DNA from: an uncultured Candidatus Saccharibacteria bacterium
Lineage (GTDB): Bacteria; Patescibacteriota; Dojkabacteria; B142; OLB20
Length of the DNA: 64,000 nucleotides
Assembly: GCA_964420145.1 (NCBI GenBank)
Contig: CAYQRB010000002.1
Location: 4,056-68,055 of the forward strand
Reading direction: 5' to 3'
Part shown: piece after piece, positions 35,976 to 63,421 of the stretch
How the letters are laid out: each line of letters opens with the position of its first letter
Numbering within the stretch: position 1 is the first letter of the stretch
Notes under the pieces: model-generated
Seen by the model: the letters and a program-made list of their open reading frames with translations, nothing else
What the model was told of the DNA's origin: nothing
The model's database searches: none
Translations under genes and position numbers: made by a program

Positions 35976-36557
35976 TTAAATTGATATTGAGTCTTCGAAA
36001 CTTGTAGTAGTTTCTTGACCTAAGTTATTCTCACTACTGTGTTTATCACTAGTAGAGTGATTTTTTTCGGAGTTCTTTCTTTTACCTCTGGATTGATATA
36101 TACCTATAAAATTAGAAACAAACCCAGTAAGCAGTGAGGTTACAAACAACAGGAATGCTACTGTATAAAGATTATCAGTTAGTGAGGGAGATAACGCAAA
36201 ATTTATTTTCCAAAGGATAAGACCAGTTAGGAAATAAAATAAAAAAACATAATATATAGGTTGGAGTAAAACTATAAATAAAATTGATAGAAGAGGAACC
36301 AGGAGTACATCTTTTCTTGATTGAAAGAGATTGTTGAACTTGAAAATATAAACACAGATTAACCACGAAACTATATGTGAGAGTAAATAGAAAGTACTGA
36401 CTACATAAATATTTTGAAATCCGCCTTGTAGCATTAAAAATGGATCTTCTTCTATAAATACTCCAATATAGCTAAAAAATGCAAAAATTAGGATTAGTAG
36501 TAATCCGGGTAACATAAATCTAAAATATGAAATTGTAGATTTTAGTTTTGTTGACAT
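35976..36557 (-). CDS. Hypothetical integral membrane protein
   Basis: Several TM helices and an S/E-rich C-terminal tail. Tightly linked to the ABC exporter gene. Confidence 0.4.
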   Translation of the reverse strand: MSTKLKSTISYFRFMLPGLLLILIFAFFSYIGVFIEEDPFLMLQGGFQNIYVVSTFYLLSHIVSWLICVYIFKFNNLFQSRKDVLLVPLLSILFIVLLQPIYYVFLFYFLTGLILWKINFALSPSLTDNLYTVAFLLFVTSLLTGFVSNFIGIYQSRGKRKNSEKNHSTSDKHSSENNLGQETTTSFEDSISI

Positions 36558-44223: not shown

Positions 44224-46191
44224 ATGGCACAATCATTTGATCTTATAGGACAAAGAAATATTCGTATTGAAAAAGCTAATAAGCTTAGGAAAATCGGAAT
44301 TAACCCCTACCCTTCTGTTTCCAGAAGAAATACAAGTACGCAAGAAGCTAGGGCTAGTTTTGAGGATAATGATGGAAAAAGCGTGGTAGTTGCAGGGAGA
44401 TTAATGTCTTGGAGGGAGCATGGTGGAGTAGTTTTTGGAAATGTTCAAGACCAAAGTGGATCTATCCAGCTATACATAAAGTCTGAAGTAATAGAAAAAA
44501 CGAACCCCAAAAAAGGAAATATAGGTTTTGAAGACCTACATCTCTTAGATATTGGTGATATTGTAGAGGCTGTGGGATCTGTTACTAAAACCCAAAAAGG
44601 GGAGATTTCTATTTTGGTATATGAACTACGACTTTTAACTAAGTCGATTAGGCCTCTACCCGACAAACGGAAAGGTTTACAGGATAAAGAGAAAATCTAC
44701 CGCCAAAGATATCTGGATATGATTATGAATCCTGATAAAAGATGGAGGTTTGTTAAAACAGCAGAGATTGTTTTTGCCATTAGAGAGTTTTTAAATAGTA
44801 AAGGTTTTTTAGAAATCAAAACACCAATCATTCAGCCATCTTACGGGGGTACACTTGCAAAACCTTTTCAAACACATGTAAATGCATTAAATACTGATTA
44901 TTATCTTGCTATTTCTCACGAACTGTACTTAAAAAGGCTTATCACTGCTGGTTTCGAAAATGTTTATAACATAACTGGGTATTTTAGAAATGAAGGAATT
45001 GATCGTACTCATAATCCAGAGTTCCAAATGGTTGAAACTATGACTGCTTTCAAAAACTATGAGTATAATATGGATTTAATTGAAGATTTATACAAGTATG
45101 TAGCTACCAAGGTTTTCAATAAAACAGAATTTGAGATAGCAGGACATTCTATAGACTTTAGTAAAGATTGGCCCAGGATTAAAATGATAGATGCTGTTAA
45201 AACATATGCCAGACACGATTTTAATAAGATTCAAACTATAGCAGAAGCACACAAGATACTCTCCCTAGAAGGGATAAACTCAAAACCAAAAACGATTTCA
45301 GAGTCAATGGTAGAGATTTTTAAGGAAAAAGTTGAAAGTAAGTTAATAGAGCCGACCTTTATTTATGGTCATCCAGTGGAAATTTCTCCATTAGCCAAAC
45401 GAATGGATTCTGACTCTCGGTTTGTAGAACGATTTGAGATTTTTATTGGAGGAATAGAAGGAGGAGATAACTGGACTGAGTTAAATGATCCAGTAGAGTT
45501 ATTTGCTAGGTTCAAAGATCAATTTGACCGTAGAGATAATGGAGATGAAGAAGCCCACCCAATGGATATTGACTTCTTAGAAACTATGGAATACGGAATG
45601 CCTCCAACAACCGGTCTAGGGCCAGGCATTGAAAGGTTGGCTATGATGCTTACTGATACAGAATACATAGATGATGTATTGTTTTTCCCTATGATGCGTC
45701 CTGCACAAATTACAAAGTCTCAGACGGAAATATATGGGGAAAAATATGTACAAGGTTCAACCAAAAGCTCGAAGCAAGATTTTAGTAAAAAGATGGTGAT
45801 TGTAGTAAATAAAGAAGTTAAAGGCTGGCAGTTAACCAACACCATTGCTCATATCTCAGCATATTTAGGCAATAAAATCCCACAAGCTCAATTTCAGTCC
45901 AGGGATAAGTTTATTCTCAAAGACGGAGAAATTAACTCCAACTCCCAATATGGGATTGTTACTCTAACCGCAGGACCCGCTCAACTCAAAAACTTGCTAG
46001 AAAGGATAGAAGAAACAGGGCTTCCTCATCTGGTTTTTGTAGATGAAATGATAGAGATGGGTAACGACGATGAACTCAGTGATAACCTATCACAAAAAGC
46101 TAAATCAGAACTGAATTATCTAGGAATTGGAGTGTTTGGAAATGTTGATGAAGTTGAGAAACTTACAAAAAAATTTAGCCTGTACAAATAA
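44224..46191 (+). CDS. lysS: Lysine-tRNA ligase (class II) with a roughly 160-aa C-terminal extension
   Basis: N-terminal OB anticodon-binding domain, class II motifs (...FRNEGIDRTHNPEFQMVE...GLGPGIERLAMMLTDT...FPMMRP), then an extra KKMVIVVNKEVKGWQLTNTIAHISAYLG... domain. Confidence 0.9.
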   Translation: MAQSFDLIGQRNIRIEKANKLRKIGINPYPSVSRRNTSTQEARASFEDNDGKSVVVAGRLMSWREHGGVVFGNVQDQSGSIQLYIKSEVIEKTNPKKGNIGFEDLHLLDIGDIVEAVGSVTKTQKGEISILVYELRLLTKSIRPLPDKRKGLQDKEKIYRQRYLDMIMNPDKRWRFVKTAEIVFAIREFLNSKGFLEIKTPIIQPSYGGTLAKPFQTHVNALNTDYYLAISHELYLKRLITAGFENVYNITGYFRNEGIDRTHNPEFQMVETMTAFKNYEYNMDLIEDLYKYVATKVFNKTEFEIAGHSIDFSKDWPRIKMIDAVKTYARHDFNKIQTIAEAHKILSLEGINSKPKTISESMVEIFKEKVESKLIEPTFIYGHPVEISPLAKRMDSDSRFVERFEIFIGGIEGGDNWTELNDPVELFARFKDQFDRRDNGDEEAHPMDIDFLETMEYGMPPTTGLGPGIERLAMMLTDTEYIDDVLFFPMMRPAQITKSQTEIYGEKYVQGSTKSSKQDFSKKMVIVVNKEVKGWQLTNTIAHISAYLGNKIPQAQFQSRDKFILKDGEINSNSQYGIVTLTAGPAQLKNLLERIEETGLPHLVFVDEMIEMGNDDELSDNLSQKAKSELNYLGIGVFGNVDEVEKLTKKFSLYK

Positions 46192-46715: not shown

Positions 46716-47375
46716 CTATTCTATTATGTTTTTTAGTTCTGTTATGTCTGTACTCCAAGTTCGCCTGTTTGACCACTCAAGACCTTTGAATTGTAGTTTA
46801 TATTTATCGGCTGGTTTTGTAACAGAACCAAGGTAAACAAAGGTCTTTTTTTCTATATTAGCCTTTTGAATAGCAAGCAACATCATCCCCATCCCGTAGT
46901 TTTTATTAAACTCTACAAGATCATAGAACGGATACGCATAATGCAAAATTTTCCCGGTTTCAAAACATATCGCATATCCTACTTTCTTACTATTAAAACT
47001 ATAGATTAAAAGCGAATTATAATTACTCTTAAATGGGTTTGTAAGGAGTTCTCTGGCTTTATTAACCGTGAAAGTGCGACTACCAAACTTTGTCTCATAG
47101 AAATATTTTGCTAGTTTTGATATTTCCCAATCATAATCTTCAAAAGACAATGGTAATGTTTGAGTAGTCACCTCCAACCCTTCGATATGTTTTAACACCC
47201 TCTTGTTCTCACTACTTAACTCAAACTCTGACAACCGTATTCGTAGAGATCTGGTTTGGTTCATAACACCTTTGTTTATCCGTGTAAACACATAGCCATC
47301 AGCATATTTTTTTTCTATAGTATTTTGTGAGAGATCACTAAGAACGATTTGATCAGTCTTGTAGTAGCTAGACAT
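46716..47375 (-). CDS. Aminoacyl-tRNA-protein transferase-like protein (ATE/Bpt family, GNAT-like fold)
   Basis: C-terminal ...SVYSF...FVYLGSVTKPADKYKLQFKGLEW resembles the ATE_C/Bpt pattern (YlGY....kmrYK..F.P.E). Confidence 0.5.
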   Translation of the reverse strand: MSSYYKTDQIVLSDLSQNTIEKKYADGYVFTRINKGVMNQTRSLRIRLSEFELSSENKRVLKHIEGLEVTTQTLPLSFEDYDWEISKLAKYFYETKFGSRTFTVNKARELLTNPFKSNYNSLLIYSFNSKKVGYAICFETGKILHYAYPFYDLVEFNKNYGMGMMLLAIQKANIEKKTFVYLGSVTKPADKYKLQFKGLEWSNRRTWSTDITELKNIIE

Positions 47376-50055: not shown

Positions 50056-51006
50056 TTATTTTGTACTTTCTACTCTTACCCATAACTCATCAAGTGATTT
50101 ATGTCGTATTTTCTGCTGGTAAAAAATTACTAGCCACATATAGAGTCTGAGTGGGTAAAGGGTAAGTGACCATATCATCTCCTTCATTGAAGTAGCGTAT
50201 TTAATAGGAAACCAGAAATAACCAAGTTCTTTCCAAAAATTTCTAACCTTCGTATCTTTTGTAATTACGCCATATTTCCATAATTGAACATATCCTCCCA
50301 CAGCTCTGAGTTTCTGTTTGTACCAGTCACGAAGATTTGTGGGGTATCCCACATAGACTTTAGCATCTGGAATATATTCTAGCTTCCCTCCTTTGACCAA
50401 TAATACATATGATAAATACGCATCATCTACCAAAGTATCTTCGGGGAGTTGAAGTTGGAAGTTACGCATAGCGAGAGCATACCCACTTAGAACAAAAAAA
50501 TTGTTTTTAGAGCCAATAAATACTTGTGATTTCCCCGTCTTAACGCCTTTTAATGTCGTTAGGCGCTTATGATGTGCAGCATCTGCCAAAAGGTGTGATA
50601 TATACCCAAAGAACTGATTTCGCTTATTAGTAGACACTGGCCTACCCGTCACTCCCATAACCTTTGAGTTGCGAAATGGAGCTGTTAAAAGTTTTAAATT
50701 ATTTTTTCCAAAATACACATCCCCATCTGTTAAAACCAAAACCTTCCCTTTAGCTTTTTTAAATGCTTGATTTAAGGCGGTAGGCTTCCCTTTGAAGGAG
50801 TCTATAAGCTGAGTCCATTTTATATTTGGATATTTAGATATTGTTTTTTTCGCCACCTTGTTGGTAGCTTTGTCAGGAATAACTGTAATTAACTGGAATG
50901 GTTGAGTATACCCAGAGTATACAGGATCACATATTGCTTCGATAGCTTTTTTTATTGTATTTTCTTCTCTATAAGCAGTGATGATTACTGAAAGCTCCAT
51001 TTTCAC
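50056..51006 (-). CDS. Family 2 glycosyltransferase
   Basis: LSVIITAYREENTIKKAIEAI (GT2 N-terminal motif) and a DGD (DxD-like) region. Confidence 0.7.
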   Translation of the reverse strand: MKMELSVIITAYREENTIKKAIEAICDPVYSGYTQPFQLITVIPDKATNKVAKKTISKYPNIKWTQLIDSFKGKPTALNQAFKKAKGKVLVLTDGDVYFGKNNLKLLTAPFRNSKVMGVTGRPVSTNKRNQFFGYISHLLADAAHHKRLTTLKGVKTGKSQVFIGSKNNFFVLSGYALAMRNFQLQLPEDTLVDDAYLSYVLLVKGGKLEYIPDAKVYVGYPTNLRDWYKQKLRAVGGYVQLWKYGVITKDTKVRNFWKELGYFWFPIKYATSMKEMIWSLTLYPLRLYMWLVIFYQQKIRHKSLDELWVRVESTK

Positions 51007-51056: not shown

Positions 51057-51440
51057 TTATTTGATGAGCGGTAATTGTTGTGTTTTTTTTGATTTTATCT
51101 TAAGGGTCTTTCTTCTTTTGTTTGAAGGCATTTTTATCCCTTTTTTACTACATAACTCATGTAATTTCCACATATAGAGTCTTCCTTTGTTTACATCTTG
51201 TGTTGGATAATCAAGTGTGAAAGTTAATGCCTGTTCCATAAGACTTCTGGGTAAGTCTTTGGCTAATTTTATATAAAGAGCTTTATGTTTGGGATCATGA
51301 AGTTGATGAGAAATTCTAACACCATAGTCTTGAAATTCTTCCTTTAGGTATTTTGAGTTTTGCGTCATCCGCTCTACAAAATCATATTTAGTAAGTATTG
51401 TAGAAGCCTTAGAAAACTCCCTATTCTTGTGATTTGTCAT
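51057..51440 (-). CDS. Hypothetical basic protein (last gene of the mpl operon)
   Basis: 127 aa with a K/R-rich C-terminal tail. Begins 3 nt after mpl. Confidence 0.35.
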   Translation of the reverse strand: MTNHKNREFSKASTILTKYDFVERMTQNSKYLKEEFQDYGVRISHQLHDPKHKALYIKLAKDLPRSLMEQALTFTLDYPTQDVNKGRLYMWKLHELCSKKGIKMPSNKRRKTLKIKSKKTQQLPLIK

Positions 51441-51442
51441 AG

Positions 51443-52891
51443 TTAGGTGATAGAAAAATATTTAACTAGGTTATCTATCATACCTCGGAATCCGTGACTA
51501 CCCATAAATATTATTATTTTATGTTTGTCAGGACCTAGTTCGATATATTTAACCAGAAGCTTTAGTAGTACATCATCATCAGGGACTATGGTTATATTGG
51601 AGTAATACTGTTTTAACCTATCCGAAAGTTCTTGTTCGTTAAATCTATACAACTCTGTTTTAGGTAGTCTAGTGAATCGAGGGAAAATAATCTCATTAAC
51701 ATCTTCAAAGGCATTTTCGTATGTTGCTAAAGAAGCCTCTGTTCTGTTTCCTGTGTTTGGCTCAAATATTACATATATCTCGCTATCTGGATAATCTCCT
51801 TTTAGTGCCTTTATACTTCCTCTTGCTTTGGGAGGAGAGCTTCCGAAATCATCTATTATGATGAAGTTTCGGTTTTGATACTTAATCTCAAGTCGTCTTT
51901 TTATTCCTTTGAACTCAGCAATTGCTTCTTGTATTCTTTCCTTTTTTATACCAAATTCATAGGCCAGAGCAGTAGAGGCAAGAAGATTTTCCTCGTTAAA
52001 CTCACCGATTATTTTCCGTTCATAAGGGATAATCTCAAGATCTGCAACATCTCTATCAAGCTTTATGAAAGTAGGTAGCGGTTTAGAAGTATTTTCTAAA
52101 TACCAATGTGGTTGTATATAGGCTTTATCTTTGTTTGCGGAATAATAAATAACCCGACAATCTATATTTTGAGTGATTTCTACTACGGTTTTATCATTGG
52201 CGTTGGCGATTATAATTCCACTTTGCGGGATCATATCAATAAGTTTTTCAAAATTTGCTATATACTCTGCTTGTGTAGGAAATAAATCAGGATGTTCCCA
52301 TTGGCAAGAATTTATGACTAGATATTTGGGGTTATAATAGAAAAACTTTGAAGTTCTATCGTCTAGGGAGGTTAGGTACTCATCGCCTTCTACAATTGAG
52401 TATTTGGTGTTTTGAGTTTTGGCTTTTGTTGTTTCTTTCATTTCTGGAGAAACTCCTCCATACATATAGCTTATTTCTATTTTGGCTTTTTCAAACATAG
52501 ATACCAGTGCTGCAGTTATTGTAGTTTTGCCGTATGTACCAGTAACCACTATCGATTCGTTTGTTATCACATATTCTGATAATACAGACGGATAAGATTT
52601 GATGGGAATACCTAAACGAAAGGCTTCTTGATATTCAAGGTTCTTTTCACCTTTGAGACCTTGTACAATGACAAGATCGGGATGGTTGCCATCTTCATCT
52701 GTGAGGCGTTCTGCTTTATAACCGATTGCTATCTGGATATCATATTTCTCAAGATATGTACTAATAGGAGGAAAAAATCCTTTATCACTACCTGTTATTT
52801 TAACACCATTGTATTTAAACATAACGGCCAATCCAGAAGTTACAACTCCGCATATTCCTATAAAATGAACCCATTCAGGTAGTTTTTTCAT
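51443..52891 (-). CDS. mpl: UDP-N-acetylmuramate:L-alanyl-gamma-D-glutamyl-meso-diaminopimelate ligase (Mpl; MurC paralog)
   Basis: HFIGICGVVTSGLAVMF..GVKITGSDKGFFPPISTYLEKYDIQIAIGY, TGTYGKTTITA and VEGDEYLTSLDDRTSKFFYYNPKYLVINSCQWEHPDLF align block-for-block with E. coli Mpl (GSDxxxYPPMST..., ADEYDCAFFDKRSKF...). Confidence 0.8.
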   Translation of the reverse strand: MKKLPEWVHFIGICGVVTSGLAVMFKYNGVKITGSDKGFFPPISTYLEKYDIQIAIGYKAERLTDEDGNHPDLVIVQGLKGEKNLEYQEAFRLGIPIKSYPSVLSEYVITNESIVVTGTYGKTTITAALVSMFEKAKIEISYMYGGVSPEMKETTKAKTQNTKYSIVEGDEYLTSLDDRTSKFFYYNPKYLVINSCQWEHPDLFPTQAEYIANFEKLIDMIPQSGIIIANANDKTVVEITQNIDCRVIYYSANKDKAYIQPHWYLENTSKPLPTFIKLDRDVADLEIIPYERKIIGEFNEENLLASTALAYEFGIKKERIQEAIAEFKGIKRRLEIKYQNRNFIIIDDFGSSPPKARGSIKALKGDYPDSEIYVIFEPNTGNRTEASLATYENAFEDVNEIIFPRFTRLPKTELYRFNEQELSDRLKQYYSNITIVPDDDVLLKLLVKYIELGPDKHKIIIFMGSHGFRGMIDNLVKYFSIT

Positions 52892-53666
52892 TTGTAATAT
52901 AACTAAGGCTTATATTTTTTAATCTTCGTACACCATTATCTTCTAGTTGATTCATATAGCCTTCATATGCCCAGTTTCTTCCATCTTTAATCTCAGTCCA
53001 TACTTGTTTATCTAGTGTTGCGCTACTATCAGAAATTATGATTTTACCAAATCGTAGTCCGTTTTCTTCGTTATATCCTTTGATCGAGTGGATATACTCG
53101 ATTTCACTAACATTATTATCTATCACAGTTACTTCTGAAACTATCATAAGATGATGTGAATTTTTTCGAAGTCCCTTGCTACGAATAAAATCTCCCGGTC
53201 TTATCTCATTGATATTGTTTATTGGTCTCGTATTATCACTATTAGTAAGAGTGTTTGCTCCAATCTGCTCCACAGGTCTTAGTGCTCGTTTTAGTTTTTG
53301 TAACAAACTGTTATTTTTGAATTTAAGATAAGTTATGAGTGGATTTTTTCCTTCCTGTTTAAGCCAAAAGTTGTACACATGAGAAACAAGGCCAGAGCAG
53401 TCTATACCTATATGGTTGTCAATCATAAATTGACGAATTTCATCAGCAGATAATTTAGAGAGATCTATTCCTTTGAGTTGGGCGTGAACTTTGACTTCTC
53501 TGGAAATTTCACCAGGATCGCCTTTTCCGACCAAAACCCTTAATCCCGCTCTTTGTGTCTTTGGATTAATAAAATATGGACAAATAATTTGCTTCCCTCC
53601 AAGTGGTAGATGAGAGTACTCTTCTATTACTTTTTTAGCACTTTCTGGCAGAGTGTATGTTACCAT
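52875..53666 (-). CDS. NlpC/P60-like papain-fold hydrolase (putative Cys/His)
   Basis: IGIDCSGLVSHVY (the DCSG catalytic Cys context) followed about 75 aa later by KNSHHLMIVSEV. Weak but consistent. Confidence 0.5.
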   Translation of the reverse strand: MVTYTLPESAKKVIEEYSHLPLGGKQIICPYFINPKTQRAGLRVLVGKGDPGEISREVKVHAQLKGIDLSKLSADEIRQFMIDNHIGIDCSGLVSHVYNFWLKQEGKNPLITYLKFKNNSLLQKLKRALRPVEQIGANTLTNSDNTRPINNINEIRPGDFIRSKGLRKNSHHLMIVSEVTVIDNNVSEIEYIHSIKGYNEENGLRFGKIIISDSSATLDKQVWTEIKDGRNWAYEGYMNQLEDNGVRRLKNISLSYITNEKTT

Positions 53667-53667
53667 T

Positions 53668-55113
53668 TTACAATTGATGATATTTAATTGCGTTTAATGC
53701 TTCAATAATCCAGGGTGATATCTCTCCAGAATTATCTATGGCACTCTGGTTTAGTTGGATTCTTGTAATCTCTTCACCCTTTTTTACAATTCTTCCTGCT
53801 ATAGGAGTTAAAACTAATATTCCTTGCTTATCCATAAAATCAATACTTACAGCATATTTTTGAAACAAAAGAGATTTATCCCGATCCTCATCAAGGAAGA
53901 TTGTTGTGGATTCTACTTCGTCCGTGTAGCGATTGATTGCCGCATTATCTCCTTGAAGTCTGTAGACACCCATATTAACTTGATGATTTATCACAATATC
54001 ATTTTCTGCTCGTATAAACACCTGTGAATAGTTATCTGGTTCTATATTTCTATTATTATATTCAGCAGGTTTGTGATAAATATCCAAATTAAAAAACTCC
54101 AGCAAATGCAATGCAGAAAGTGGAATCTCGCCTTTTAATAACTGTATCTTTGTATACATAGGTACTGATGCTGTTTGTCTTGCATTTATCTCAATAATAA
54201 CGCAGTCTCCATTTTCTCTTACAATAAAATCAACTCCAAACATCCCTTTGAAGCCTTTCTTATACATAAGATTTCCGATAATCTCAATTTTTTTCAATAT
54301 ATTTTCATAGCTACTGATATTAGCTCTAATAGACCAATCATTGCCAATTGTTGCTCCTTTGGTGGCTCCAAGACCTTTGTCGCCAGTCAGCTGGAGACTG
54401 AGACCACCGACAAAAATACCGGCTTTAGTAGCACAAGCATTTATGGTATAGATTTTACCCTCCACAAAGCTCGCAAACTTTACTGTTTTTTGTGAATTTT
54501 CTACTTGGAGTTTATCAAACTCTTCTTCGGTTTCTATAATATGCGTACCTGAGCCAGTATGTCCCCTAGCAAATTGAACAACAAACTTTTCTCCTAGTTT
54601 TTGTACCACTTGTAGAAAAGTTACCTGGTCAAACCGACTAATCAAGCTGTGGGGAAATGGTACATATTGTGCAAATTCTTGATACTGTGTCAGCTTCTCC
54701 TCAAACAAACGACTAGTGGAGACATCATTGTTTATAGTATTTAACTTTTGAGATTGTATGTTTTTCACAAACGCTGATGATACTTTGAATGTTTGAGCAA
54801 AATTGGTTTCTTTTTTATATTTTCCTAAATAATCAAGTACGGATTGTTCTTTTAGGAGAACTCTAGCTCCCCCTGAAAATGTATTGATTGAACCATTTTC
54901 ATCTTCAAGACAGAAATAATGTACTCCTGTATCATCAAAATGTTTGAGGTACTGAGTTTTTAGAATATGAACAATGTGATAGTTGGGCAAAACACCACAT
55001 AAACCCATTGCTCTTTCTGGGTCTCGTACAAAATAATATAAGTTTTTTTCGGTTAGAAACTCTTTTAATAAATCGATGGTATTTTGTAGTTCACTTCCCA
55101 TTTTTATATACAT
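53668..55113 (-). CDS. ATP-grasp ligase with an extra N-terminal domain
   Basis: Glycine-rich loop KFVVQFARGHTGSGTHII and C-terminal GMFGVDFIVRENGDCVIIEINAR (ATP-grasp Mg/ATP site). 481 aa. Confidence 0.65.
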   Translation of the reverse strand: MYIKMGSELQNTIDLLKEFLTEKNLYYFVRDPERAMGLCGVLPNYHIVHILKTQYLKHFDDTGVHYFCLEDENGSINTFSGGARVLLKEQSVLDYLGKYKKETNFAQTFKVSSAFVKNIQSQKLNTINNDVSTSRLFEEKLTQYQEFAQYVPFPHSLISRFDQVTFLQVVQKLGEKFVVQFARGHTGSGTHIIETEEEFDKLQVENSQKTVKFASFVEGKIYTINACATKAGIFVGGLSLQLTGDKGLGATKGATIGNDWSIRANISSYENILKKIEIIGNLMYKKGFKGMFGVDFIVRENGDCVIIEINARQTASVPMYTKIQLLKGEIPLSALHLLEFFNLDIYHKPAEYNNRNIEPDNYSQVFIRAENDIVINHQVNMGVYRLQGDNAAINRYTDEVESTTIFLDEDRDKSLLFQKYAVSIDFMDKQGILVLTPIAGRIVKKGEEITRIQLNQSAIDNSGEISPWIIEALNAIKYHQL

Positions 55114-55606
55114 ATATTTTATTGTTCTCAGATTTTAATGGCTTTCTATCTTTAAATTGAAAAGTGTTAGTTATTATAATTGTATTTTCTGGCATTTCTT
55201 TCGCAATTTTATGTGAAAGTTGATTCATAACTTTTGGATAAAGATATAGGAATACCCCATCATATCCTTTATAACTAATTTTTAAAAAATCATTTCTAAT
55301 TATATGAAGTTGTTTGTATCCACCCAGAAGTTTTTTAAGATATATTATAAAGACTAAGATAGGGTTAAACTCAACTGCTGTTACTTCATAACCAGCCTTT
55401 GCTAAAGCTATTGCGATCCTTCCATCTCCAGCTCCAAGCTCTAGGATGTGTTGTACTTTATACTTTTCTAATACATCCAACATAGTTTGCATACTTTTCT
55501 TAGAGGTTGGATAATACGGTGCGCTTATTTTAAAGGCTTTAAACCAATAAAAAAAATAGAGGGTATAAATAATAGTAATAAACAGTAGAAAAAGAAGTTC
55601 TATCAT
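55091..55606 (-). CDS. Class I SAM-dependent methyltransferase with an N-terminal TM helix
   Basis: Motif I ILELGAGDGRIAIALAKAGYEVTAVE. Overlaps both neighbouring genes. Confidence 0.7.
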   Translation of the reverse strand: MIELLFLLFITIIYTLYFFYWFKAFKISAPYYPTSKKSMQTMLDVLEKYKVQHILELGAGDGRIAIALAKAGYEVTAVEFNPILVFIIYLKKLLGGYKQLHIIRNDFLKISYKGYDGVFLYLYPKVMNQLSHKIAKEMPENTIIITNTFQFKDRKPLKSENNKIYVYKNGK

Positions 55607-56517
55607 AATCCACTAAATAATAAGATTGGATTTGTAAAACTATACCCTGCTTGTAAAGCTTTTTGAAGTCCTGAATAAGCAAGTATGGAGTTATAACTAT
55701 ACTCTCCGATATCATAAGAGCTTATTTTAGATTTTGCTTCTATCAGTTCAGTGTCAGAAATTACCCATCCAGAACCGTGGCTTTGATTTATAACCTCTAC
55801 TATCTTTCTTTTTCTATGTGCTACTTTATCAGTAATTGCATCTGCCAAACTAGAGTTTAAGGATTGAAAACTGGAATCAAAAACCTTTGCTATTGAGTAA
55901 ACTTTTTCAGTCTGGCAAATATGTATTTGTACTGGTATGTTTAACTCTGAAAAACCTGAGGCTATGCCCAGTGCACTTGTTCCACTACTAGTGGGGATAA
56001 AGATTGCATCAGTATGTTGACTACTTTTGATAATTTCATATGCGATACTTTTGTATCCTTGTGGTGCGTATTCATCAGTAGAACCTCTCAAACTAGTAAA
56101 ATCGGGATTATTGCTTAAAAACTTTATAAGATCTGATCTAGGTTTAGGGCTTTTTGATAATGTGATATTTTGAGTTCCTTTTATAATGTCGTTTATACGA
56201 TTTAGTTTTTCTTGGTGAATAGAGTCACTTACAAAAACACATAGCTTTAGTTTGTATAGTTTGGCAATAAAGGATGCAGAGATTGCAGCATTACCTGAAG
56301 ACGAAATTGCAAATTTTGTTTTACCATCTTGTAGATGCCTCGCAATTTGGTAAGATAACCCCCTATCTTTAAATGATCCAGTTGGGTTACGAGTTTCGTC
56401 TTTGATAATCGCAGTATAATTATCATTAGAAATTGTGTGAGTAGGTGTATTTCCCTGTCCAAAGTTGATCTGGTATTCCTTTCTAATCTCAGGATAGTTA
56501 TGCCAAAATGTGTTCAT
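55603..56517 (-). CDS. Fold-type II PLP-dependent enzyme (threonine synthase-like)
   Basis: PLP-lysine motif NPTGSFKDRG and a glycine-rich phosphate loop (SSGNAAIS). 304 aa. Confidence 0.7.
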   Translation of the reverse strand: MNTFWHNYPEIRKEYQINFGQGNTPTHTISNDNYTAIIKDETRNPTGSFKDRGLSYQIARHLQDGKTKFAISSSGNAAISASFIAKLYKLKLCVFVSDSIHQEKLNRINDIIKGTQNITLSKSPKPRSDLIKFLSNNPDFTSLRGSTDEYAPQGYKSIAYEIIKSSQHTDAIFIPTSSGTSALGIASGFSELNIPVQIHICQTEKVYSIAKVFDSSFQSLNSSLADAITDKVAHRKRKIVEVINQSHGSGWVISDTELIEAKSKISSYDIGEYSYNSILAYSGLQKALQAGYSFTNPILLFSGL

Positions 56518-56604: not shown

Positions 56605-56793
56605 ATGGATTTAAATATTATAACTCAAGGTCAATCATATACATGTGCGGAGTGTAAAAACAACTCTAAACTTGATGAAAATCTATCGGTTGGTGATGTT
56701 GTAGAGTGTGAGTTTTGTGGAATTGAATATGAAATTGCTTCTAGTGATGGCAATGGAAATTTTACCTTAACACTATTAGAAGAAGAAAAGTAA
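56605..56793 (+). CDS. LysW-like zinc-ribbon small protein (amino-group carrier protein family resemblance)
   Basis: YTCAECKNNSKLDENLSVGDVVECEFCGIEYEIA...LLEEEK, compared with LysW CPECGAELRLENPELGELVVCEDCGAELEV...EEDWGE. Has CxxC..CxxC and an acidic C-terminus, but ends in K rather than E. Confidence 0.45.
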   Translation: MDLNIITQGQSYTCAECKNNSKLDENLSVGDVVECEFCGIEYEIASSDGNGNFTLTLLEEEK

Positions 56794-57002: not shown

Positions 57003-58049
57003 ATGTTTAATCCTCAATTCACAATAAATAATAAAGTGCTTACCAATATAGTGAAAATCGAAAAACTCTTGGTAAGTATAGAATTACTAGAAATTTCTAC
57101 AACACAAAGCTTAAAGTTAAAGGCAAATACAAAAGTATTAAACATTTTTCATTTTGCTCATATGATTTCTTATAATCTTTCTCTCAATGACGCAGAGAAA
57201 ATCAGTGAAGGAAAACTCTACAATCAGGAAAATATAAATAATATTCTTCTTAATAATTTACGCAATTCTCATGAGTTTATAAGGTCTAGTCTCCAAGATG
57301 AGTATATTGATATTGACTCCAGTATTCTTTTACATATTAACAAAATCCTTTTATCTAACTGGAAGGAAGTTTGGGATGTCAAATTTAGAAACCCACAACT
57401 TATAGAAGATACGCAATGGAACGATTGGGTAAAGCTTACCGACAGGACTATTGAACCATTAACACTTCAAGATGAACTAAAATCAGCATTTGATTGGTAT
57501 AAGATTTCAGCACAAAGGGTTTATGTTTTGATTAGAGTTTCTGCTCTCATATTTAGACTGATCCAGCTCGCACCTTTTTCTTATTTAAATAAATTCACAA
57601 TTATCTCTGCTGTTGATTTCCTTTTCAAAAAATATGGATATTCAAGTAATGACTACTTATCTGTTTTCCGCTTATTTGATACTCATAACTCAAACTTTAT
57701 GGCTATAATCGAAAAAATCAATATAGAAAACCAAAATGATATTACTGTTTGGATTGAGTCTTTTACCGACGCACTGCATAGTGAGCTTCTATCACTTATG
57801 GAAGATGTAAAATCAATTGCTTTGGACGGTACTTCTTCGAAAAAAACTTTTCTTGACTTAAATAAACGACAACTAAAAATATTGAAATACTTACAAACAA
57901 TCCCTACCGTTAAACGGGAAGATTATGTACAAGTTATGGATGTGTCGACTATGACAGCCTTTAGGGATTTAAATGACCTGGTGACAAAAAAGCTCTTAAA
58001 AGTTGATGGTAGAGGAAGATCCACCAAGTATATGCTTATAAATCGTTAA
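57003..58049 (+). CDS. Fic/DOC-fold-like protein with a degenerate active-site motif and a C-terminal winged-helix domain
   Basis: The region where the Fic motif HPFxDGNGR would sit reads LAPFSYLNKF (His/Asp/Gly/Arg absent). The C-terminus is wHTH-like (LNKRQLKILKYL...DYVQVMDVSTMTAFRDLNDLV...GRGRSTKY). Confidence 0.5.
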   Translation: MFNPQFTINNKVLTNIVKIEKLLVSIELLEISTTQSLKLKANTKVLNIFHFAHMISYNLSLNDAEKISEGKLYNQENINNILLNNLRNSHEFIRSSLQDEYIDIDSSILLHINKILLSNWKEVWDVKFRNPQLIEDTQWNDWVKLTDRTIEPLTLQDELKSAFDWYKISAQRVYVLIRVSALIFRLIQLAPFSYLNKFTIISAVDFLFKKYGYSSNDYLSVFRLFDTHNSNFMAIIEKINIENQNDITVWIESFTDALHSELLSLMEDVKSIALDGTSSKKTFLDLNKRQLKILKYLQTIPTVKREDYVQVMDVSTMTAFRDLNDLVTKKLLKVDGRGRSTKYMLINR

Positions 58050-59867: not shown

Positions 59868-60968
59868 ATGAACATAGAGTTAATCATAACAGTTATTATT
59901 CTGGCGGTCTTGCTTTCTTTTCTGCTGGCTTTCCCAATTATTAGTTTCTTGTATAAATTTAAAATTGTGCGAAATTTAGATGTTGATTTTTCTGTTTTAA
60001 TAGAATCTCGAAAACACAAAGTAGGAACCCCAATTATGGGAGGGTTAATAGTGATACTAACTGTTATAATTTTAAACTTGATCTTAAATTTTAATAAATT
60101 AACAGCTGTCCCCATACTACTTTTTGTTACCCTGGCTATTATTGGGGGATTTGATGATATATTAAATTTGTTTGGACAGAAACGAAAGGTTCGAACCCTT
60201 AGTAGAACAATGAAGCTAATACAGGTACATAAACAATCCCTAACCAGGGTTAAGCTTGTTTTTGCACTACCGTGGATAGTATTCCAACGAGTTATGCATA
60301 TATTTGAATCTAATCCGGGAAAGGGATTGTTTGCACATGAACGAATCTTTTTTCAAATCTCTACTGCACTAATTTTCATATTGTGGTTTGTACGAGTAGT
60401 TCCCGAGCCAGATACTATTCAGTTCCCTCTTTTAGGGGTTATTTCAATAGGGATATTAATAATACCGTTACTACTTATAATCTTTCTAGGTCTTATTAAT
60501 GCAGTGAATTTCTCTGACGGATTGGATGGTCTTTCTGCTGGAATGTTGTTAAATGCTTATATAGGCTTTTTAGCTATAGCTTATTTTGAAAACAACACTA
60601 GTATTGCCATATTAGTAGCTACTGTTATTGGTGGTCTAATCACATATCTTTATTTCAATATTCCTCCTGCGAGGGTGCAGATGGGAGATATAGGAACATA
60701 TTCTTTAGGTGGTCTATTGGCAATAGTTGGGATCATTTTAGGTAAGCCATTACTGATATTTATAATTTGTTTTCCTTTTGTGGTAGAGGTATCAAGTACC
60801 CTACTACAAGGGATTGTAAGAAGACTGTTTGGAAGAAGATTATTTAAAATGGCCCCACTACATCATCATTTTGAAATGATGGGTTGGTCTGAAGAAAAAG
60901 TTGTTATGCGATTTTGGCTTTTCTCTAGTATTTGTACCTTGTTTGGAATTTGGGTGTATTTTTGGTAA
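59868..60968 (+). CDS. mraY: Phospho-N-acetylmuramoyl-pentapeptide transferase
   Basis: KHKVGTPIMGG, GGFDDILN, NAVNFSDGLDGLSAG and MAPLHHHFEMMGW motifs. There is a roughly 25-30 aa insertion between the DD and NxxDGLDGL blocks relative to E. coli MraY. The ATG may sit 1 nt upstream of the tracked start. Confidence 0.85.
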   Translation: MNIELIITVIILAVLLSFLLAFPIISFLYKFKIVRNLDVDFSVLIESRKHKVGTPIMGGLIVILTVIILNLILNFNKLTAVPILLFVTLAIIGGFDDILNLFGQKRKVRTLSRTMKLIQVHKQSLTRVKLVFALPWIVFQRVMHIFESNPGKGLFAHERIFFQISTALIFILWFVRVVPEPDTIQFPLLGVISIGILIIPLLLIIFLGLINAVNFSDGLDGLSAGMLLNAYIGFLAIAYFENNTSIAILVATVIGGLITYLYFNIPPARVQMGDIGTYSLGGLLAIVGIILGKPLLIFIICFPFVVEVSSTLLQGIVRRLFGRRLFKMAPLHHHFEMMGWSEEKVVMRFWLFSSICTLFGIWVYFW

Positions 60969-61432: not shown

Positions 61433-63421
61433 ATGGACGATGCATATTTTGGAAATAAAAAGGTTTGTATAACTCAAAGGCGTTATCTTGGCTCTAAAAC
61501 CAGGCTACTTTCATTTATTGATAATATCATTGAGCAAGAAAAGATAGAGTTTGATTCTTTTGCTGATATCTTTGCTGGAACTGGAACTGTTGCTAATCAT
61601 TTCCATAATCGCTCAAAAATCATTGTTAATGACATTTTAGATTCAAACTCTCATATCTACTCTGCCTTTTTTGGTGAAGACGAAATCAGAGAACAAAAAT
61701 TAAAGGAAAGATTAAAATATTATAACGATATTGAAGTTAAGCAATATGACGAAAATTATTTTTCAAAAAACTTTTCAAATACCTACTTTGATGCAGAAAA
61801 TGCAAAAAGGATAGGAATTATTAGAGATGACATCGAAAAGTTATTTGAAGAAAGAATAATCACACATAGAGAGAAATCGTATCTACTCACATCACTTATA
61901 TACGCTCTTGATAGAATTGCCAATACAGTCGGGCATTATGATGCATACAGAAAAATTGATATTCCGAGCAAAAAATTATTTTTACTGCCTCTTGATATAA
62001 CAAACTCGCAGTTCACTGCTGAAATCTACAAAAATGATGCGAATGAATTGGTAAAGAAAATTAAAGCAGATGTTGTTTATATTGACCCACCATATAATTC
62101 ACGCCAATACTCTGATGCATATCATTTACTAGAAAACATAACTACTTGGAAAAAAGAAAAAGTTTTTGGTGTAGCCAAAAAAATTAACCGCTCTCATATT
62201 AAAAGTAAATACAATATGAAATCGGCTGGCGTTGCCTTTAGTGATTTGATAGACAACATTAGTGCAAAATATATCCTCGTGTCTTATAACGATATGGGGA
62301 CATCGGGCAACGCCCGATCACAATCACGAATAAGCGACCACGAAATTTTATCGGCACTAAAACGGCGAGGAGAAGTTCAGATTTATGAAACAGATTTTAA
62401 ACAATTTACCACTGGTAAATCAAACAAGGACGACTTAAAAGAACGCATATTTTTATGCAAAATAGATGTTGAGACAAAAGCAAATAGTAAAATAATTGCG
62501 TCAAAAAATAATCCTGTTCAAAGTGGTTTTGTTAAATCACCGCTTAATTACACTGGTGGAAAACATAAACTTTTGCCACAAATAACAAAATTGTTCCCGA
62601 ATGATATTAAAACTTTTTATGATGTATTCTCAGGCGGTGCAAATGTCGGTATAAATGCAACCGCACGAAATATAATCTGCATTGAAAAAAATCGCTATGT
62701 AGTAAATCTACTAAAACTCATTCAAAATGATAATTTTGAGAATTTGAACCAAAAAGTACTTGATATCATAGATGATTTTGGATTAAGCCAGAGTTATATC
62801 AAAGGCTACGACCATTATGGCGTTGATAGTTCGTCGGGATTAGGTCAATACAATAAAGAAGCTTTCTTAAAACTTCGCAATGAATTTAATAAAGAAAAAA
62901 CTAGAATTGATTTATTGCTAGTGCTTATTCTGTATTCTTTCAACAATCAGATTAGATTTAATTCAAAGGGCGATTTTAACTTGCCAGTTGGCAAACGAGA
63001 TTATAACGGCAGTTCAAGAAAGAATATCGCCGCCTTTAATCAAATATCAAACGAGAAAAAAATAGTATTCAAAAGTTGTGATTTCCGTGATGTTGAAAAA
63101 ATGTCATTAGTAAAAAACGATTTTATCTATCTTGACCCACCGTATCTGTTAGGTCTTGCTAGTTATAACGAAATGAGGGGCTGGACAGAAAAAGATGAAA
63201 AAGACTTATATGCATTACTTGCAAAGTTAGACAGAAAAGGCATTCGCTTTGCCTTGTCCAATGTCTTGGAACACAAAGGCAATGTTAATGAAATAATGAA
63301 AAATTGGGCAGAAAAATATAAATATAATGTTCATAAATTAGATTATCATTATAAAAACTCGAATTATCACTCCAGTGCAAAGAACAATAAGACAATAGAG
63401 GTACTTATTACAAATTACTGA
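61433..63421 (+). CDS. Fused tandem D12-class (Dam-like) N6-adenine DNA methyltransferase (two MTase domains, type IIS-style M subunit)
   Basis: Domain 1 has YLGSKTRLL, FAGTGTV and VVYIDPPYNSRQY. Domain 2 has NYTGGKHKLL, DVFSGGANV and FIYLDPPYLLGLASY. Two complete D12/DPPY modules, as in M.FokI/M.AlwI-type enzymes that methylate both strands of an asymmetric site. Confidence 0.85.
   Translation: MDDAYFGNKKVCITQRRYLGSKTRLLSFIDNIIEQEKIEFDSFADIFAGTGTVANHFHNRSKIIVNDILDSNSHIYSAFFGEDEIREQKLKERLKYYNDIEVKQYDENYFSKNFSNTYFDAENAKRIGIIRDDIEKLFEERIITHREKSYLLTSLIYALDRIANTVGHYDAYRKIDIPSKKLFLLPLDITNSQFTAEIYKNDANELVKKIKADVVYIDPPYNSRQYSDAYHLLENITTWKKEKVFGVAKKINRSHIKSKYNMKSAGVAFSDLIDNISAKYILVSYNDMGTSGNARSQSRISDHEILSALKRRGEVQIYETDFKQFTTGKSNKDDLKERIFLCKIDVETKANSKIIASKNNPVQSGFVKSPLNYTGGKHKLLPQITKLFPNDIKTFYDVFSGGANVGINATARNIICIEKNRYVVNLLKLIQNDNFENLNQKVLDIIDDFGLSQSYIKGYDHYGVDSSSGLGQYNKEAFLKLRNEFNKEKTRIDLLLVLILYSFNNQIRFNSKGDFNLPVGKRDYNGSSRKNIAAFNQISNEKKIVFKSCDFRDVEKMSLVKNDFIYLDPPYLLGLASYNEMRGWTEKDEKDLYALLAKLDRKGIRFALSNVLEHKGNVNEIMKNWAEKYKYNVHKLDYHYKNSNYHSSAKNNKTIEVLITNY

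What the first reader, a model, noticed from the sequence alone, without database searches (positions are those of the whole stretch)
51057..56517. Six-gene translationally coupled operon: ThrC-like PLP enzyme, TM-anchored SAM MTase, large ATP-grasp ligase, NlpC/P60-like, Mpl, small basic protein
Every junction overlaps or is within 3 nt (55603/55606, 55091/55113, 53666/53668, 52875/52891, 51440/51443), so the genes are co-expressed. Mpl (murein peptide ligase) and an NlpC/P60-type peptidase are a known peptidoglycan-peptide recycling pair. Adding a fold-type II PLP enzyme (the racemase/dehydratase/synthase fold) and a 481-aa ATP-grasp ligase suggests a pathway that makes and ligates a non-canonical amino acid into a muropeptide. 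This would parallel the racemase plus ATP-grasp logic of D-Asp or D-Ser incorporation systems. That is inference from domain content only. The methyltransferase with a TM helix is unexplained.
Basis: partly seen in the sequence, partly recalled or inferred. Interest (0 to 1): 0.6.

Follow-up and report, generated by a model that had tools for sequence, protein, structure and literature searches.

The report
Lysine-tailed carrier module beside cell-wall genes
The six genes are real, but the conserved unit is a different, undescribed four-protein set (a tiny LysW-like carrier protein that always ends in lysine, a threonine-synthase-like enzyme, an ATP-dependent ligase and a cytoplasmic cysteine peptidase) that sits among cell-wall precursor genes in several lineages of ultra-small CPR bacteria and probably makes a cell-wall building block on a protein carrier.

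Summary
All six ORFs and their junctions are as described, in a Candidatus Dojkabacteria (CPR) genome. Tight junctions are normal throughout this window, so they say little about function. Synteny over 80 related loci (407 genomes hold an ATP-grasp relative) redraws the unit. It is complete in 32 of 35 loci with full flanks. ATP-grasp and P60 are fused in Magasanikbacteria. In other CPR phyla the pair directly precedes mraY, with murB, a MurC-type ligase, the carrier and the PLP gene around it. The 'Mpl', the small basic protein and GT2 form a separate block, joined to the core only in close relatives. The ligase scores higher as MurC than Mpl, below both cutoffs. All of roughly 100 carrier homologs whose C-terminus is present end in Lys; canonical LysW uses a C-terminal Glu. 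The PLP enzyme is ThrC-derived with a remodelled phosphate site. Best reading: a carrier-tethered amino-acid tailoring cycle feeding peptidoglycan precursor synthesis. The chemistry is inferred. No description was found in the literature searched.

The parts
56605..56793 (+). LysW-like zinc-ribbon carrier protein, 62 aa, tail ...LLEEEK; divergent from the PLP gene (87-nt spacer)
   Evidence: PF21344 Zn_ribbon_LysW 32.2 bits, above its cutoff of 27. Best solved match is Thermus LysW 3wwl, E=0.002, over the globular domain only. Present next to the PLP gene in 32/35 full-flank loci. Every homolog whose C-terminus is present ends in Lys.
55603..56517 (-). Fold-type II PLP enzyme derived from threonine synthase, but not a bona fide ThrC
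   Evidence: PALP E=1e-37. ThrC equivalogs score 43-96 bits against cutoffs of 167-421. The family profile aligns full-length to ThrC 2zsj at E=1e-31. SFKDR Lys50 is invariant; ThrC's N-P-x-R block and the STGNT threonine are replaced. Present in 33/35 loci.
55091..55606 (-). Membrane-anchored class I SAM methyltransferase, N-methyltransferase-like; optional and limited to Dojkabacteria
   Evidence: Weak matches to Erm/KsgA and to archaeal protein-lysine N-MTase. Invariant P-[FY]-[YV]-P-[ST] motif after the TM helix, GxGDG, ExNP and NTF. Present in 17/35 loci and absent outside Dojkabacteria.
53668..55113 (-). ATP-grasp carboxylate-amine ligase, proposed loader of the carrier
52875..53666 (-). 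Cytoplasmic NlpC/P60 cysteine peptidase with an extra conserved N-terminal region, proposed unloader
51443..52891 (-). MurC/Mpl-family UDP-MurNAc ligase; an associated block, not core
   Evidence: MurC 239.6 bits, Mpl 185.2 bits, both below cutoff. Walker motif GTYGKTT present. JGI names its orthologs Mpl; NCBI names them 'Mur ligase family protein'. Adjacent to the core only in L001, L002 and L004 among Dojkabacteria, but near the carrier/PLP pair in other CPR phyla.
51057..51440 (-). Small basic protein of unknown function that travels with the Mur ligase
   Evidence: No Pfam, NCBIfam or PHROG match. It is 54% identical to the ORF following the ligase in WS6 OLB20, where the ligase is far from the module.
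50056..51006 (-). Family 2 glycosyltransferase, part of the ligase block
   Evidence: Glyco_tranf_2_3 E=9e-16. Follows the ligase and small protein in L001, L002, L004 and in OLB20.
46716..47375 (-). Weak ATE_C/Fem-like (aminoacyl-tRNA transferase fold) protein, a recurrent neighbour
   Evidence: It is 37% identical to the gene that precedes the MurC-type ligase in Uhrbacteria L055, and it recurs in 19 loci. The Pfam ATE_C match is only E=0.014 here and 3e-5 in L055, so the family call is tentative.
59868..60968 (+). MraY, genomic context
   Evidence: A MraY homolog directly follows ATP-grasp/P60 in 32 of 80 loci, with overlapping stop and start codons in L041, L051 and L071. Pfam Glycos_transf_4 in L081.

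Best explanation
Core claim (about 0.55): the functional unit is a four-protein, carrier-based amino-acid tailoring module dedicated to peptidoglycan precursor synthesis. It consists of a small acidic LysW-like zinc-ribbon protein whose invariant C-terminal lysine is the working end, an ATP-grasp ligase that makes an amide bond on that tail, a ThrC-derived PLP enzyme that carries out the chemistry, and a cytoplasmic NlpC/P60 peptidase that breaks the bond and releases the product. Dojkabacteria add a membrane-anchored N-methyltransferase. The MurC-type ligase, small basic protein and GT2 are a neighbouring cell-wall block, not part of the cycle.

Preferred chemistry (inference, about 0.2-0.25 on its own): the terminal lysine is itself the cargo. 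It is held through its alpha-amino group, like the last intermediate of the LysW lysine pathway. The PLP enzyme forms an aminoacrylate or vinylglycine-type intermediate from a hydroxy-amino acid that is probably not phosphorylated, and the carrier's free epsilon-amine adds to it. This mirrors the way CysM and the ThrC-like MetM use a carrier's C-terminal thiocarboxylate. P60 then removes the modified C-terminal lysine, matching the Glu-then-diamino-acid regiochemistry of YkfC-type enzymes. The ATP-grasp reloads free lysine. The product would be a lysine-derived diamino-dicarboxylic acid that a DAP-type MurE could place at stem-peptide position 3.

Shown: gene content, co-conservation, the fusion, folds, catalytic residues, the invariant tail and the cell-wall gene context. 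Inferred: every chemical step, the order of steps and the product. The confidence value given (0.5) is for the core claim.
For: Co-conservation: P60 follows the ATP-grasp in 32/35 loci with at least 8 kb on both sides, the PLP gene is present in 33/35, and the carrier in 32/35. This holds across Dojkabacteria down to about 30% identity and in Magasanikbacteria, Uhrbacteria, Colwellbacteria and Parcubacteria, with rearranged gene orders.
Fusion: P0116 (666 aa) is ATP-grasp (E=3e-36) plus P60 (E=3e-35, with the GVDCSG motif). That is the architecture expected of a make-and-break pair acting on one bond, as in glutathionylspermidine synthetase/amidase (own knowledge).
Carrier: it passes the LysW globular-domain model and best matches Thermus LysW in the PDB. 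In roughly 100 sequences, every visible C-terminus is Lys, while the preceding residues vary (EEEK, DEGK, EMMK, DMIK, DREK, QTSK, KDSK). The carrier gene is always next to the PLP gene, even where ATP-grasp/P60 lie 4-6 kb away.
Ligase: all ATP-grasp catalytic residues are invariant. The nearest structures are amino-acid and peptide ligases, including PylC, which acylates a lysine epsilon-amine, and the gamma-glutamyl ligase BesA.
Peptidase: a genuine NlpC/P60 fold with an intact Cys/His pair, no signal peptide, nearest to enzymes that cleave at Glu-diamino-acid or D-Ala-diamino-acid bonds.
PLP enzyme: ThrC-derived, with Lys50 retained but the positions of ThrC's phosphate-binding residues changed. 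There is a precedent for a ThrC homolog working with a small carrier protein, a hydrolase and an ATP-dependent activator: MetM, MetO, Mec and MoeZ (bioRxiv 10.1101/2024.10.14.618325).
Cell-wall link: ATP-grasp, P60 and mraY have overlapping stop/start codons in L041, L051 and L071. murB is divergent upstream. Uhrbacteria L055 reads ATE_C-like, MurC-type ligase, carrier, PLP, ATP-grasp, P60, MraY, FtsW. MurE beside the module passes the DAP-type equivalog cutoff and keeps the Arg of the DNPR-type motif as EDPR.
Against: No biochemical data exist, and no protein-protein or tail-in-active-site modelling could be run. The ATP-grasp is structurally nearer to free amino-acid ligases than to LysX, RimK or TTL, which act on protein C-termini. 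That fits loading onto the lysine epsilon-amine at least as well as reloading lysine onto the C-terminus. No fold-type II PLP enzyme is known to use a protein lysine as a nucleophile (own knowledge). Three of 35 full-flank loci lack parts of the set. The module occurs in only about 407 species-level genomes, so it cannot be a general CPR solution for DAP supply. Whether these genomes lack dap, murI, alr or ddl genes could not be tested, so the metabolic need is assumed. The residue numbering for ThrC phosphate binding comes from memory. A membrane-anchored methyltransferase and the NUDIX fusions are not explained by the cycle.
Confidence: 0.5

Rival explanations
1. Epsilon-amine tether for making a D-amino acid. 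The ATP-grasp attaches a free L-amino acid through its carboxyl group (alpha-carboxyl of Ala, or gamma-carboxyl of Glu as BesA does) to the epsilon-amine of the carrier's terminal lysine. The PLP enzyme, which now sees a free alpha-amine, epimerises it. The P60 peptidase hydrolyses only the D-form, releasing D-Ala or D-Glu for MurF/Ddl or MurD. ATP use and stereoselective release make the racemisation directional.
For: PylC (acylates a lysine epsilon-amine) and BesA (gamma-glutamyl ligase) are among the closest structures and sequences. P60's nearest relatives cleave D-Ala-to-diamino-acid crosslinks (MepS) and gamma-D-Glu-diamino-acid bonds. The PLP family has the S-S-G-N motif, with near-invariant Ser74 at the position of the re-face base of fold-II serine racemases (residue role from own knowledge). 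Serine and aspartate racemases are significant profile hits. Tethered L-Glu to D-Glu epimerisation has a precedent in cell-wall synthesis, MurD2/MurL (PMC8788868, listed; details from own knowledge). Genomic coupling to murC, murB and mraY.
Against: The enzyme is clearly closer to ThrC (113 bits) than to racemases (78 bits or less). A Ser at that motif position also occurs in non-racemase CysK/CBS enzymes (own knowledge). The model does not explain why the lysine must be the very last residue. The absence of MurI, Alr or Ddl in these genomes was not shown.
Confidence: 0.2
2. The PLP enzyme makes a non-canonical (D-)amino acid as a free metabolite, the ATP-grasp ligates it directly onto a UDP-MurNAc-peptide (as D-Asp ligase does in enterococci), and P60 together with an Mpl-type ligase recycles murein peptides. 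The zinc-ribbon protein is an accessory or regulatory subunit.
For: Cell-wall gene context. JGI annotates the ligase clade as Mpl. NUDIX domains fused to or beside the ATP-grasp would suit a UDP-linked substrate. P60 resembles cytoplasmic muropeptide-trimming enzymes. A scavenging lifestyle is plausible for CPR bacteria (own knowledge).
Against: The ligase is not co-conserved with P60 or the ATP-grasp within Dojkabacteria. It scores higher as MurC than Mpl. MurE and MurF are present next to the module. The model leaves unexplained a carrier homolog with an invariant terminal Lys that is co-conserved in 32/35 loci, and an ATP-grasp/P60 fusion, which would be futile if one builds and the other degrades stem peptides.
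Confidence: 0.13
3. A regulatory tail cycle rather than a biosynthetic one. The zinc-ribbon protein is a regulator or adaptor of the precursor-synthesis machinery, and its C-terminal residue is removed and re-added, or decorated, like the tubulin detyrosination/tyrosination cycle (ATP-grasp TTL plus a papain-like peptidase). The PLP enzyme is a separate metabolic enzyme that happens to share its promoter region.
For: The same two enzyme classes (ATP-grasp ligase and papain-fold cysteine peptidase) act on an acidic tail with one encoded terminal residue in the tubulin system (own knowledge). The ATP-grasp/P60 fusion. The invariant terminal Lys.
Confidence: 0.07
4. Unrelated housekeeping genes packed together by genome compaction: a true ThrC, an rRNA or protein methyltransferase, a Ddl-like ligase, a wall hydrolase and MurC.
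For: Tight junctions are universal in this window, including between clearly unrelated genes. The ligase, small-protein and GT2 part really is an independent block.
Against: The four core genes stay together across several CPR phyla despite rearrangements, and two of them are fused. The PLP enzyme fails every ThrC equivalog cutoff by a wide margin. No Ddl model matches the ATP-grasp.
Confidence: 0.03

Closest known systems
LysW/AmCP amino-group carrier system (LysW, LysX, LysZ, LysY, LysJ, LysK) of Thermus, Sulfolobus and Thermococcus
   Same: A small acidic zinc-ribbon carrier that is homologous in its globular domain, an ATP-grasp loader and a hydrolase that releases the product. Substrate chemistry takes place on a protein tail. 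The last LysW intermediate is carrier-bound lysine.
   Different: Canonical LysW uses the C-terminal Glu as the attachment point (PMC12998189). Here the only invariant tail residue is a C-terminal Lys. The loader is not of the RimK/LysX type. The releasing enzyme is an NlpC/P60 cysteine peptidase, not an M20 metallopeptidase. No kinase, reductase or aminotransferase was found in the flanks surveyed, and a single ThrC-like PLP enzyme takes their place. The context is cell-wall precursor genes rather than amino-acid biosynthesis.
Sulfur-carrier systems CysO/CysM/Mec+/MoeZ and MetO/MetM/Mec/MoeZ
   Same: The same four roles: a small carrier whose C-terminus is the reactive group, a fold-type II PLP enzyme (MetM is ThrC-like), a hydrolase that frees the amino acid, and an ATP-dependent enzyme that recharges the carrier.
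   Different: Those carriers are ubiquitin-like beta-grasp proteins ending in Gly-Gly thiocarboxylate, the activator is E1-like, the hydrolase is a JAMM metalloprotease, and the chemistry is sulfur transfer. None of these proteins is homologous to the carrier, ligase or peptidase here.
Glutathionylspermidine synthetase/amidase and the tubulin tyrosine ligase/vasohibin cycle
   Same: An ATP-grasp-type ligase paired with, or fused to, a papain-fold cysteine amidase that makes and breaks the same amide bond. In tubulin the bond is at an acidic protein tail with one encoded terminal residue.
YkfC/MepS-type NlpC/P60 enzymes with Mpl in murein peptide recycling
   Same: The P60 fold and catalytic residues, a cytoplasmic location as for YkfC, and a MurC/Mpl-family ligase nearby in this window.
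   Different: P60 is coupled to the ATP-grasp, not to the ligase. It has a conserved extra N-terminal region in place of SH3b domains. The ligase is not demonstrably Mpl.
Threonine synthase (ThrC)
   Same: Full-length homology and the PLP-lysine motif.
   Different: Scores are far below all equivalog cutoffs. The N-P-x-R block and the STGNT threonine are replaced. The N-terminal ThrC domain is largely absent (304 aa against about 350).

Membership tests
LysW / amino-group carrier protein | Zinc-ribbon globular domain (two CxxC knuckles) homologous to LysW | tested here: met
   PF21344 32.2 bits against a cutoff of 27. Best PDB match is Thermus LysW 3wwl, E=0.002, residues 13-48.
LysW / amino-group carrier protein | C-terminal Glu whose carboxyl carries the substrate amino group | tested here: not met
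   The tail ends in Lys in every homolog whose C-terminus is present. No acidic position in the tail is invariant. The NCBIfam LysW equivalog TIGR01206 scores 24.3 against a cutoff of 53.2. The canonical attachment to a C-terminal Glu is stated in PMC12998189.
LysW / amino-group carrier protein | Partner enzymes LysX (RimK-type), LysZ, LysY, LysJ and LysK in the same cluster | tested here: not met
Threonine synthase | Score above curated equivalog cutoff | tested here: not met
   Best is NF006205 at 96.4 bits against 358. TIGR00260 scores 43.3 against 167.1.
Threonine synthase | Residues that bind the O-phosphohomoserine phosphate (Arg of the NPxR block, Thr of STGNT, and others) | tested here: not met
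   In the profile alignment to 2zsj and 6cgq, the NPYR block aligns to S-T-D-E-x-A and STGNT aligns to SSGNA. The functional role of those residues is recalled from the ThrC literature and was not re-derived here.
Threonine synthase | Fold-type II PLP enzyme with a Schiff-base Lys in S-F-K-D-R | tested here: met
   K50 and R52 are invariant in 26 sequences. PALP E=1e-37.
Mpl (UDP-MurNAc:tripeptide ligase) | Score above the TIGR01081 cutoff and higher than MurC | tested here: not met
   Mpl scores 185.2 against a cutoff of 388.7 and covers only model positions 2-360 of 448. MurC scores 239.6 over its full length.
Mpl (UDP-MurNAc:tripeptide ligase) | Accepts L-Ala-gamma-D-Glu-mDAP as substrate | not testable with these tools
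   Needs an enzyme assay.
MurC (UDP-MurNAc:L-Ala ligase) | Three Mur ligase domains, P-loop, and a score above the TIGR01082 cutoff | tested here: inconclusive
   All three domains and GTYGKTT are present. The score is 239.6 against a cutoff of 335.1. All CPR relatives tested score similarly low. It is the only MurC-type gene in the 64-kb window, but the rest of the genome was not available.
NlpC/P60 (C40) peptidase | Papain-like fold with a catalytic Cys-His | tested here: met
NlpC/P60 (C40) peptidase | Secreted wall hydrolase (signal peptide, wall-binding domains) | tested here: not met
   There is no N-terminal hydrophobic segment, and it is fused to the C-terminus of a cytoplasmic ATP-grasp in P0116.
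ATP-grasp carboxylate-amine ligase | ATP-grasp fold with a conserved Lys, the Mg-binding E-x-N and a catalytic Arg | tested here: met
D-Ala-D-Ala ligase (Ddl) | Match to Ddl models, or closest structural class | tested here: not met
CysO/MetO-type sulfur carrier systems | Beta-grasp carrier ending in Gly-Gly, with an E1-like activator | tested here: not met
   The carrier is a zinc ribbon ending in Lys and the activator is an ATP-grasp. The resemblance is in logic only.

The most novel reading that the evidence does not exclude
Several CPR lineages use a previously unrecognised type of protein-carrier pathway, a LysW homolog with 'inverted' chemistry whose C-terminal lysine is the tether or cargo in place of glutamate. 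The pathway is worked by a ThrC-derived PLP enzyme, an ATP-grasp loader and an NlpC/P60 unloader. It would make a peptidoglycan-specific amino acid, either a lysine-derived diamino-dicarboxylate replacing meso-DAP or a D-amino acid, and so define a new branch of cell-wall precursor biosynthesis and possibly a new peptidoglycan chemotype.
Probability: 0.35. Interest if true: 0.85.

Novelty: new variant of a known kind. Interest (0 to 1): 0.68.

Why it matters
CPR (Patescibacteria) bacteria are a large, almost uncultured part of bacterial diversity with minimal metabolism. How they obtain the unusual amino acids of their cell wall is, to my knowledge, unsettled; my searches found nothing on it. 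A conserved module embedded in the mraY/murB/murC cluster gives a concrete, testable candidate for that supply route. It would also extend the LysW carrier idea, so far known for lysine, arginine and a few Streptomyces metabolites, to cell-wall synthesis and to a carrier that works through a terminal lysine. It would add a new job for a cytoplasmic NlpC/P60 peptidase and for a threonine-synthase-like enzyme. In practice it warns that 'threonine synthase', 'Mpl' and 'hypothetical protein' labels in these genomes are misleading, and it supplies four small soluble proteins that can be tested in vitro without culturing the organism.

Tried and rejected
- Canonical LysW lysine/arginine pathway: rejected. 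The tail ends in Lys, not Glu; no LysZ, LysY, LysJ or LysK appeared in the flanks annotated; the ligase is not RimK-type.
- Bona fide ThrC: rejected on cutoffs and on substrate-site residues.
- Ddl replacement: no family support, and Ddl is only a mid-rank structural match.
- Exposing a LysW-like terminal Glu by removing the Lys: rejected, because the penultimate residue is Glu, Gly, Met, Ile, Ser or Tyr depending on the lineage.
- RiPP or secondary-metabolite scaffold: considered unlikely, given vertical-looking conservation across phyla inside the division/cell-wall cluster.
- Carrier fusions to enzymes: the long hits in the exhaustive search (P0368, P0372, P0381, P0384, P0388) looked spurious; the two I fetched (P0372, P0384) are FG-GAP-like repeat matches.
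- ATE_C/Fem-like neighbour: recurrent (19 loci), but the family assignment is too weak to build on.
- Promoter and terminator scans: uninformative, at background level.
- Literature: eight searches found no description of the module. Iyer et al. 2009 is not held.
- AlphaFold-database fold search: unavailable.

Full report
**The observation**

The window has about 33% G+C and comes from a Candidatus Dojkabacteria (WS6, CPR) genome. The ATP-grasp protein is 100% identical to a database cluster, and most of its named relatives are labelled Dojkabacteria.

Tight junctions are the norm in this genome, even between unrelated genes: KsgA and DnaE overlap by 11 nt, and TGT and KsgA are 3 nt apart. The same-strand string also runs on through GT2, Mfd and a further gene. 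Promoter and terminator scans are at background level. So the arrangement is real, but on its own it is weak evidence for a functional unit.

**Family assignments**

- **55603-56517:** a fold-type II PLP enzyme, closest to threonine synthases but far below every curated cutoff (96 bits against 358; TIGR00260 43 against 167).
- **55091-55606:** a class I SAM methyltransferase behind one N-terminal TM helix.
- **53668-55113:** an ATP-grasp (ATP-grasp_3, above cutoff).
- **52875-53666:** below threshold for NlpC/P60 by sequence.
- **51443-52891:** a three-domain Mur ligase that scores 239.6 bits on MurC and 185.2 on Mpl, below both cutoffs.
- **51057-51440:** no match to any family.
- **56605-56793 (+):** It passes Pfam's model for the LysW globular zinc ribbon.

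**What is conserved**

A profile of the ATP-grasp found relatives in 407 species-level genomes, and 80 loci were fetched. I mapped the window's proteins onto them, added a motif search and inspected the loci by hand.

Among the 35 loci with at least 8 kb on both sides:

| Feature | Loci |
|---|---|
| P60 gene directly follows the ATP-grasp | 32 of 35 |
| PLP gene present | 33 of 35 |
| Small zinc-ribbon (carrier) gene next to the PLP gene | 32 of 35 |
| Methyltransferase present | 17 of 35 (Dojkabacteria only) |

The Mur ligase, small basic protein and GT2 follow P60 only in the closest relatives (L001, L002, L004). In WS6 OLB20 the ligase lies elsewhere, next to nrdR. It is still followed by a homolog of the small basic protein (54% identity) and a GT2.

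Gene order differs between lineages while the set stays together:

- In three Dojkabacteria loci (L010, L014, L031) the carrier directly precedes the ATP-grasp and P60, with the PLP gene divergent.
- In Magasanikbacteria, Parcubacteria and relatives the order is murB (divergent), ATP-grasp, P60, mraY, a MurC-type ligase, carrier (divergent), PLP.
- An Uhrbacteria locus (L055) reads ATE_C-like, MurC-type ligase, carrier, PLP, ATP-grasp, P60, MraY, FtsW.
- ATP-grasp, P60 and mraY have overlapping stop and start codons in L041, L051 and L071.
- In Magasanikbacteria the ATP-grasp and P60 are one 666-aa protein. I verified this by pairwise alignment: E=3e-36 and 3e-35, with the catalytic GVDCSG motif present.
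- Another lineage fuses a NUDIX domain to the ATP-grasp.

**The carrier**

The 44 carrier sequences first collected end in [IVL][IV]EEEK (Dojkabacteria) or [IV][IV]DEGK (other phyla). A Dojkabacteria subclade has a longer, divergent version with tails such as EPSEMMK, EPSDMIK, EPSDREK and TVLEK.

An exhaustive HMMER search of 1.84 billion representatives found 45 hits. Every small full-length protein among them ends in Lys (EEEK, ESEK, QTSK, KDSK, EEYK and others), and no canonical LysW was retrieved. The long hits looked spurious; the two I fetched are repeat matches.

The terminal Lys is the only invariant tail residue. The best solved match is Thermus LysW, over the globular domain only. 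In canonical LysW the substrate is attached to the C-terminal Glu, loaded by LysX and processed by LysZ, LysY, LysJ and LysK (PMC12998189). This family is a LysW homolog with a different working end.

**The enzymes**

- **PLP enzyme.** The family profile aligns end to end with short ThrC structures (E=1e-31) and keeps the Schiff-base lysine. ThrC's N-P-x-R block and the threonine of STGNT are replaced. As I recall the ThrC literature, these residues bind the substrate phosphate.
- **Methyltransferase.** The family has an invariant P-[FY]-[YV]-P-[ST] motif after the TM helix and an invariant N-T-F. Its nearest families are N-methyltransferases.

**Cell-wall context**

The window also encodes a class A PBP, two FtsW/RodA homologs, UppS, a VanY-type carboxypeptidase, MurG and MraY. 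Related Dojkabacteria loci carry MurF and a MurE that passes the DAP-type equivalog cutoff and has EDPR, retaining the arginine of the DNPR-type motif. The standard stem-peptide pathway therefore exists, and position 3 is probably a diamino-dicarboxylate.

**Interpretation**

Four component types are co-conserved among precursor genes, and two of them are fused:

1. a carrier with a reactive C-terminus;
2. an ATP-dependent ligase;
3. a fold-II PLP enzyme;
4. a hydrolase.

The same logic operates in the LysW pathway and in the sulfur-carrier systems. The ThrC-like MetM works with the carrier MetO, the hydrolase Mec and the activator MoeZ (bioRxiv 10.1101/2024.10.14.618325).

I conclude that this is a carrier-tethered amino-acid tailoring cycle serving peptidoglycan precursor synthesis. 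The preferred chemistry and its nearest alternative are both inferences:

- **Preferred:** the terminal lysine is the cargo. The PLP enzyme alkylates its epsilon-amine, P60 clips off the modified lysine, and the ATP-grasp reloads free lysine.
- **Nearest alternative:** an amino acid is tethered to the lysine epsilon-amine, epimerised to the D-form and released.

- The peptidoglycan link is supported.
- The six-gene unit, the Mpl call and the Mpl/P60 pairing are not supported.
- The racemase-plus-ligase idea survives only as a rival.
- Eight literature searches found no description of the module.

**Limits**

- There is no biochemistry and no complex modelling.
- I had no access to the rest of this genome or the related genomes, so I could not show whether a second MurC exists or whether the dap, murI, alr or ddl genes are missing.

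Noticed in passing
window 13700-15832 (-): uvrB is split. A 104-aa N-terminal ORF (15518-15832, with the Walker A motif GSGKT) and a 548-aa ORF (13700-15346, starting in the UvrB interaction domain) are separated by about 170 nt with no ORF that joins them. This could be a frameshift, a pseudogene or an assembly error.
   Followed up: partly
window 44224-46191 (+); also L086 19340-21287: A class IIb aminoacyl-tRNA synthetase (Asp/Lys/Asn type) is fused to a C-terminal DUF2000 domain. The same pairing, as separate genes, lies about 8 kb from the Mur ligase in WS6 OLB20. In the window it sits next to the ATE_C/Fem-like gene, on the opposite strand.
   Followed up: no
window 46716-47375 (-): A 219-aa protein with a weak ATE_C (aminoacyl-tRNA protein transferase/Fem-like) match recurs in 19 of the loci. 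It includes the gene directly upstream of the MurC-type ligase in Uhrbacteria L055 and a gene between MraY and the carrier in Magasanikbacteria L081. It may be a tRNA-dependent branch-peptide transferase or another loader.
   Followed up: partly
window 6614-7840 (-): An acylphosphatase domain is fused to the N-terminus of undecaprenyl-diphosphate synthase (UppS).
   Followed up: no
window 61433-63421 (+): A 662-aa protein combines a Cons_hypoth95 (RsmD-like) methyltransferase region with a D12-class N6-adenine DNA methyltransferase.
   Followed up: no
window 57003-58049 (+): A 348-aa protein with only a C-terminal DeoR-type HTH lies on the same strand just after the carrier gene. It keeps that position in many Dojkabacteria loci (L001-L015, L028, L031) and could be a regulator of the module.
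   Followed up: partly
L084 3434-5158; L081 9953-10507: A NUDIX hydrolase domain is fused to the ATP-grasp in one CPR lineage and encoded as a separate gene near the carrier/PLP pair in Magasanikbacteria. This hints at a nucleotide-linked substrate or a clean-up step.
   Followed up: partly
L041 9712-11142; L050 14938-16407: The MurC-type ligase in one Dojkabacteria subclade is only 26-30% identical to the window's ligase, whereas ligases of other CPR phyla are 34-38% identical. CPR bacteria may hold two MurC/Mpl-like clades.
   Followed up: partly
L069 17162-18844; L081 13163-14974; L068: An Elp3-like radical-SAM protein (with a GNAT domain in L069) sits just downstream of the PLP gene in three Magasanikbacteria-type loci.
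   Followed up: no
window 36542-38509 (-) and 35976-36557 (-): A 655-aa and a 193-aa ORF have no Pfam match at E<=1e-6. They overlap by 16 nt and lie just upstream of an ABC transporter gene on the same strand.
   Followed up: no
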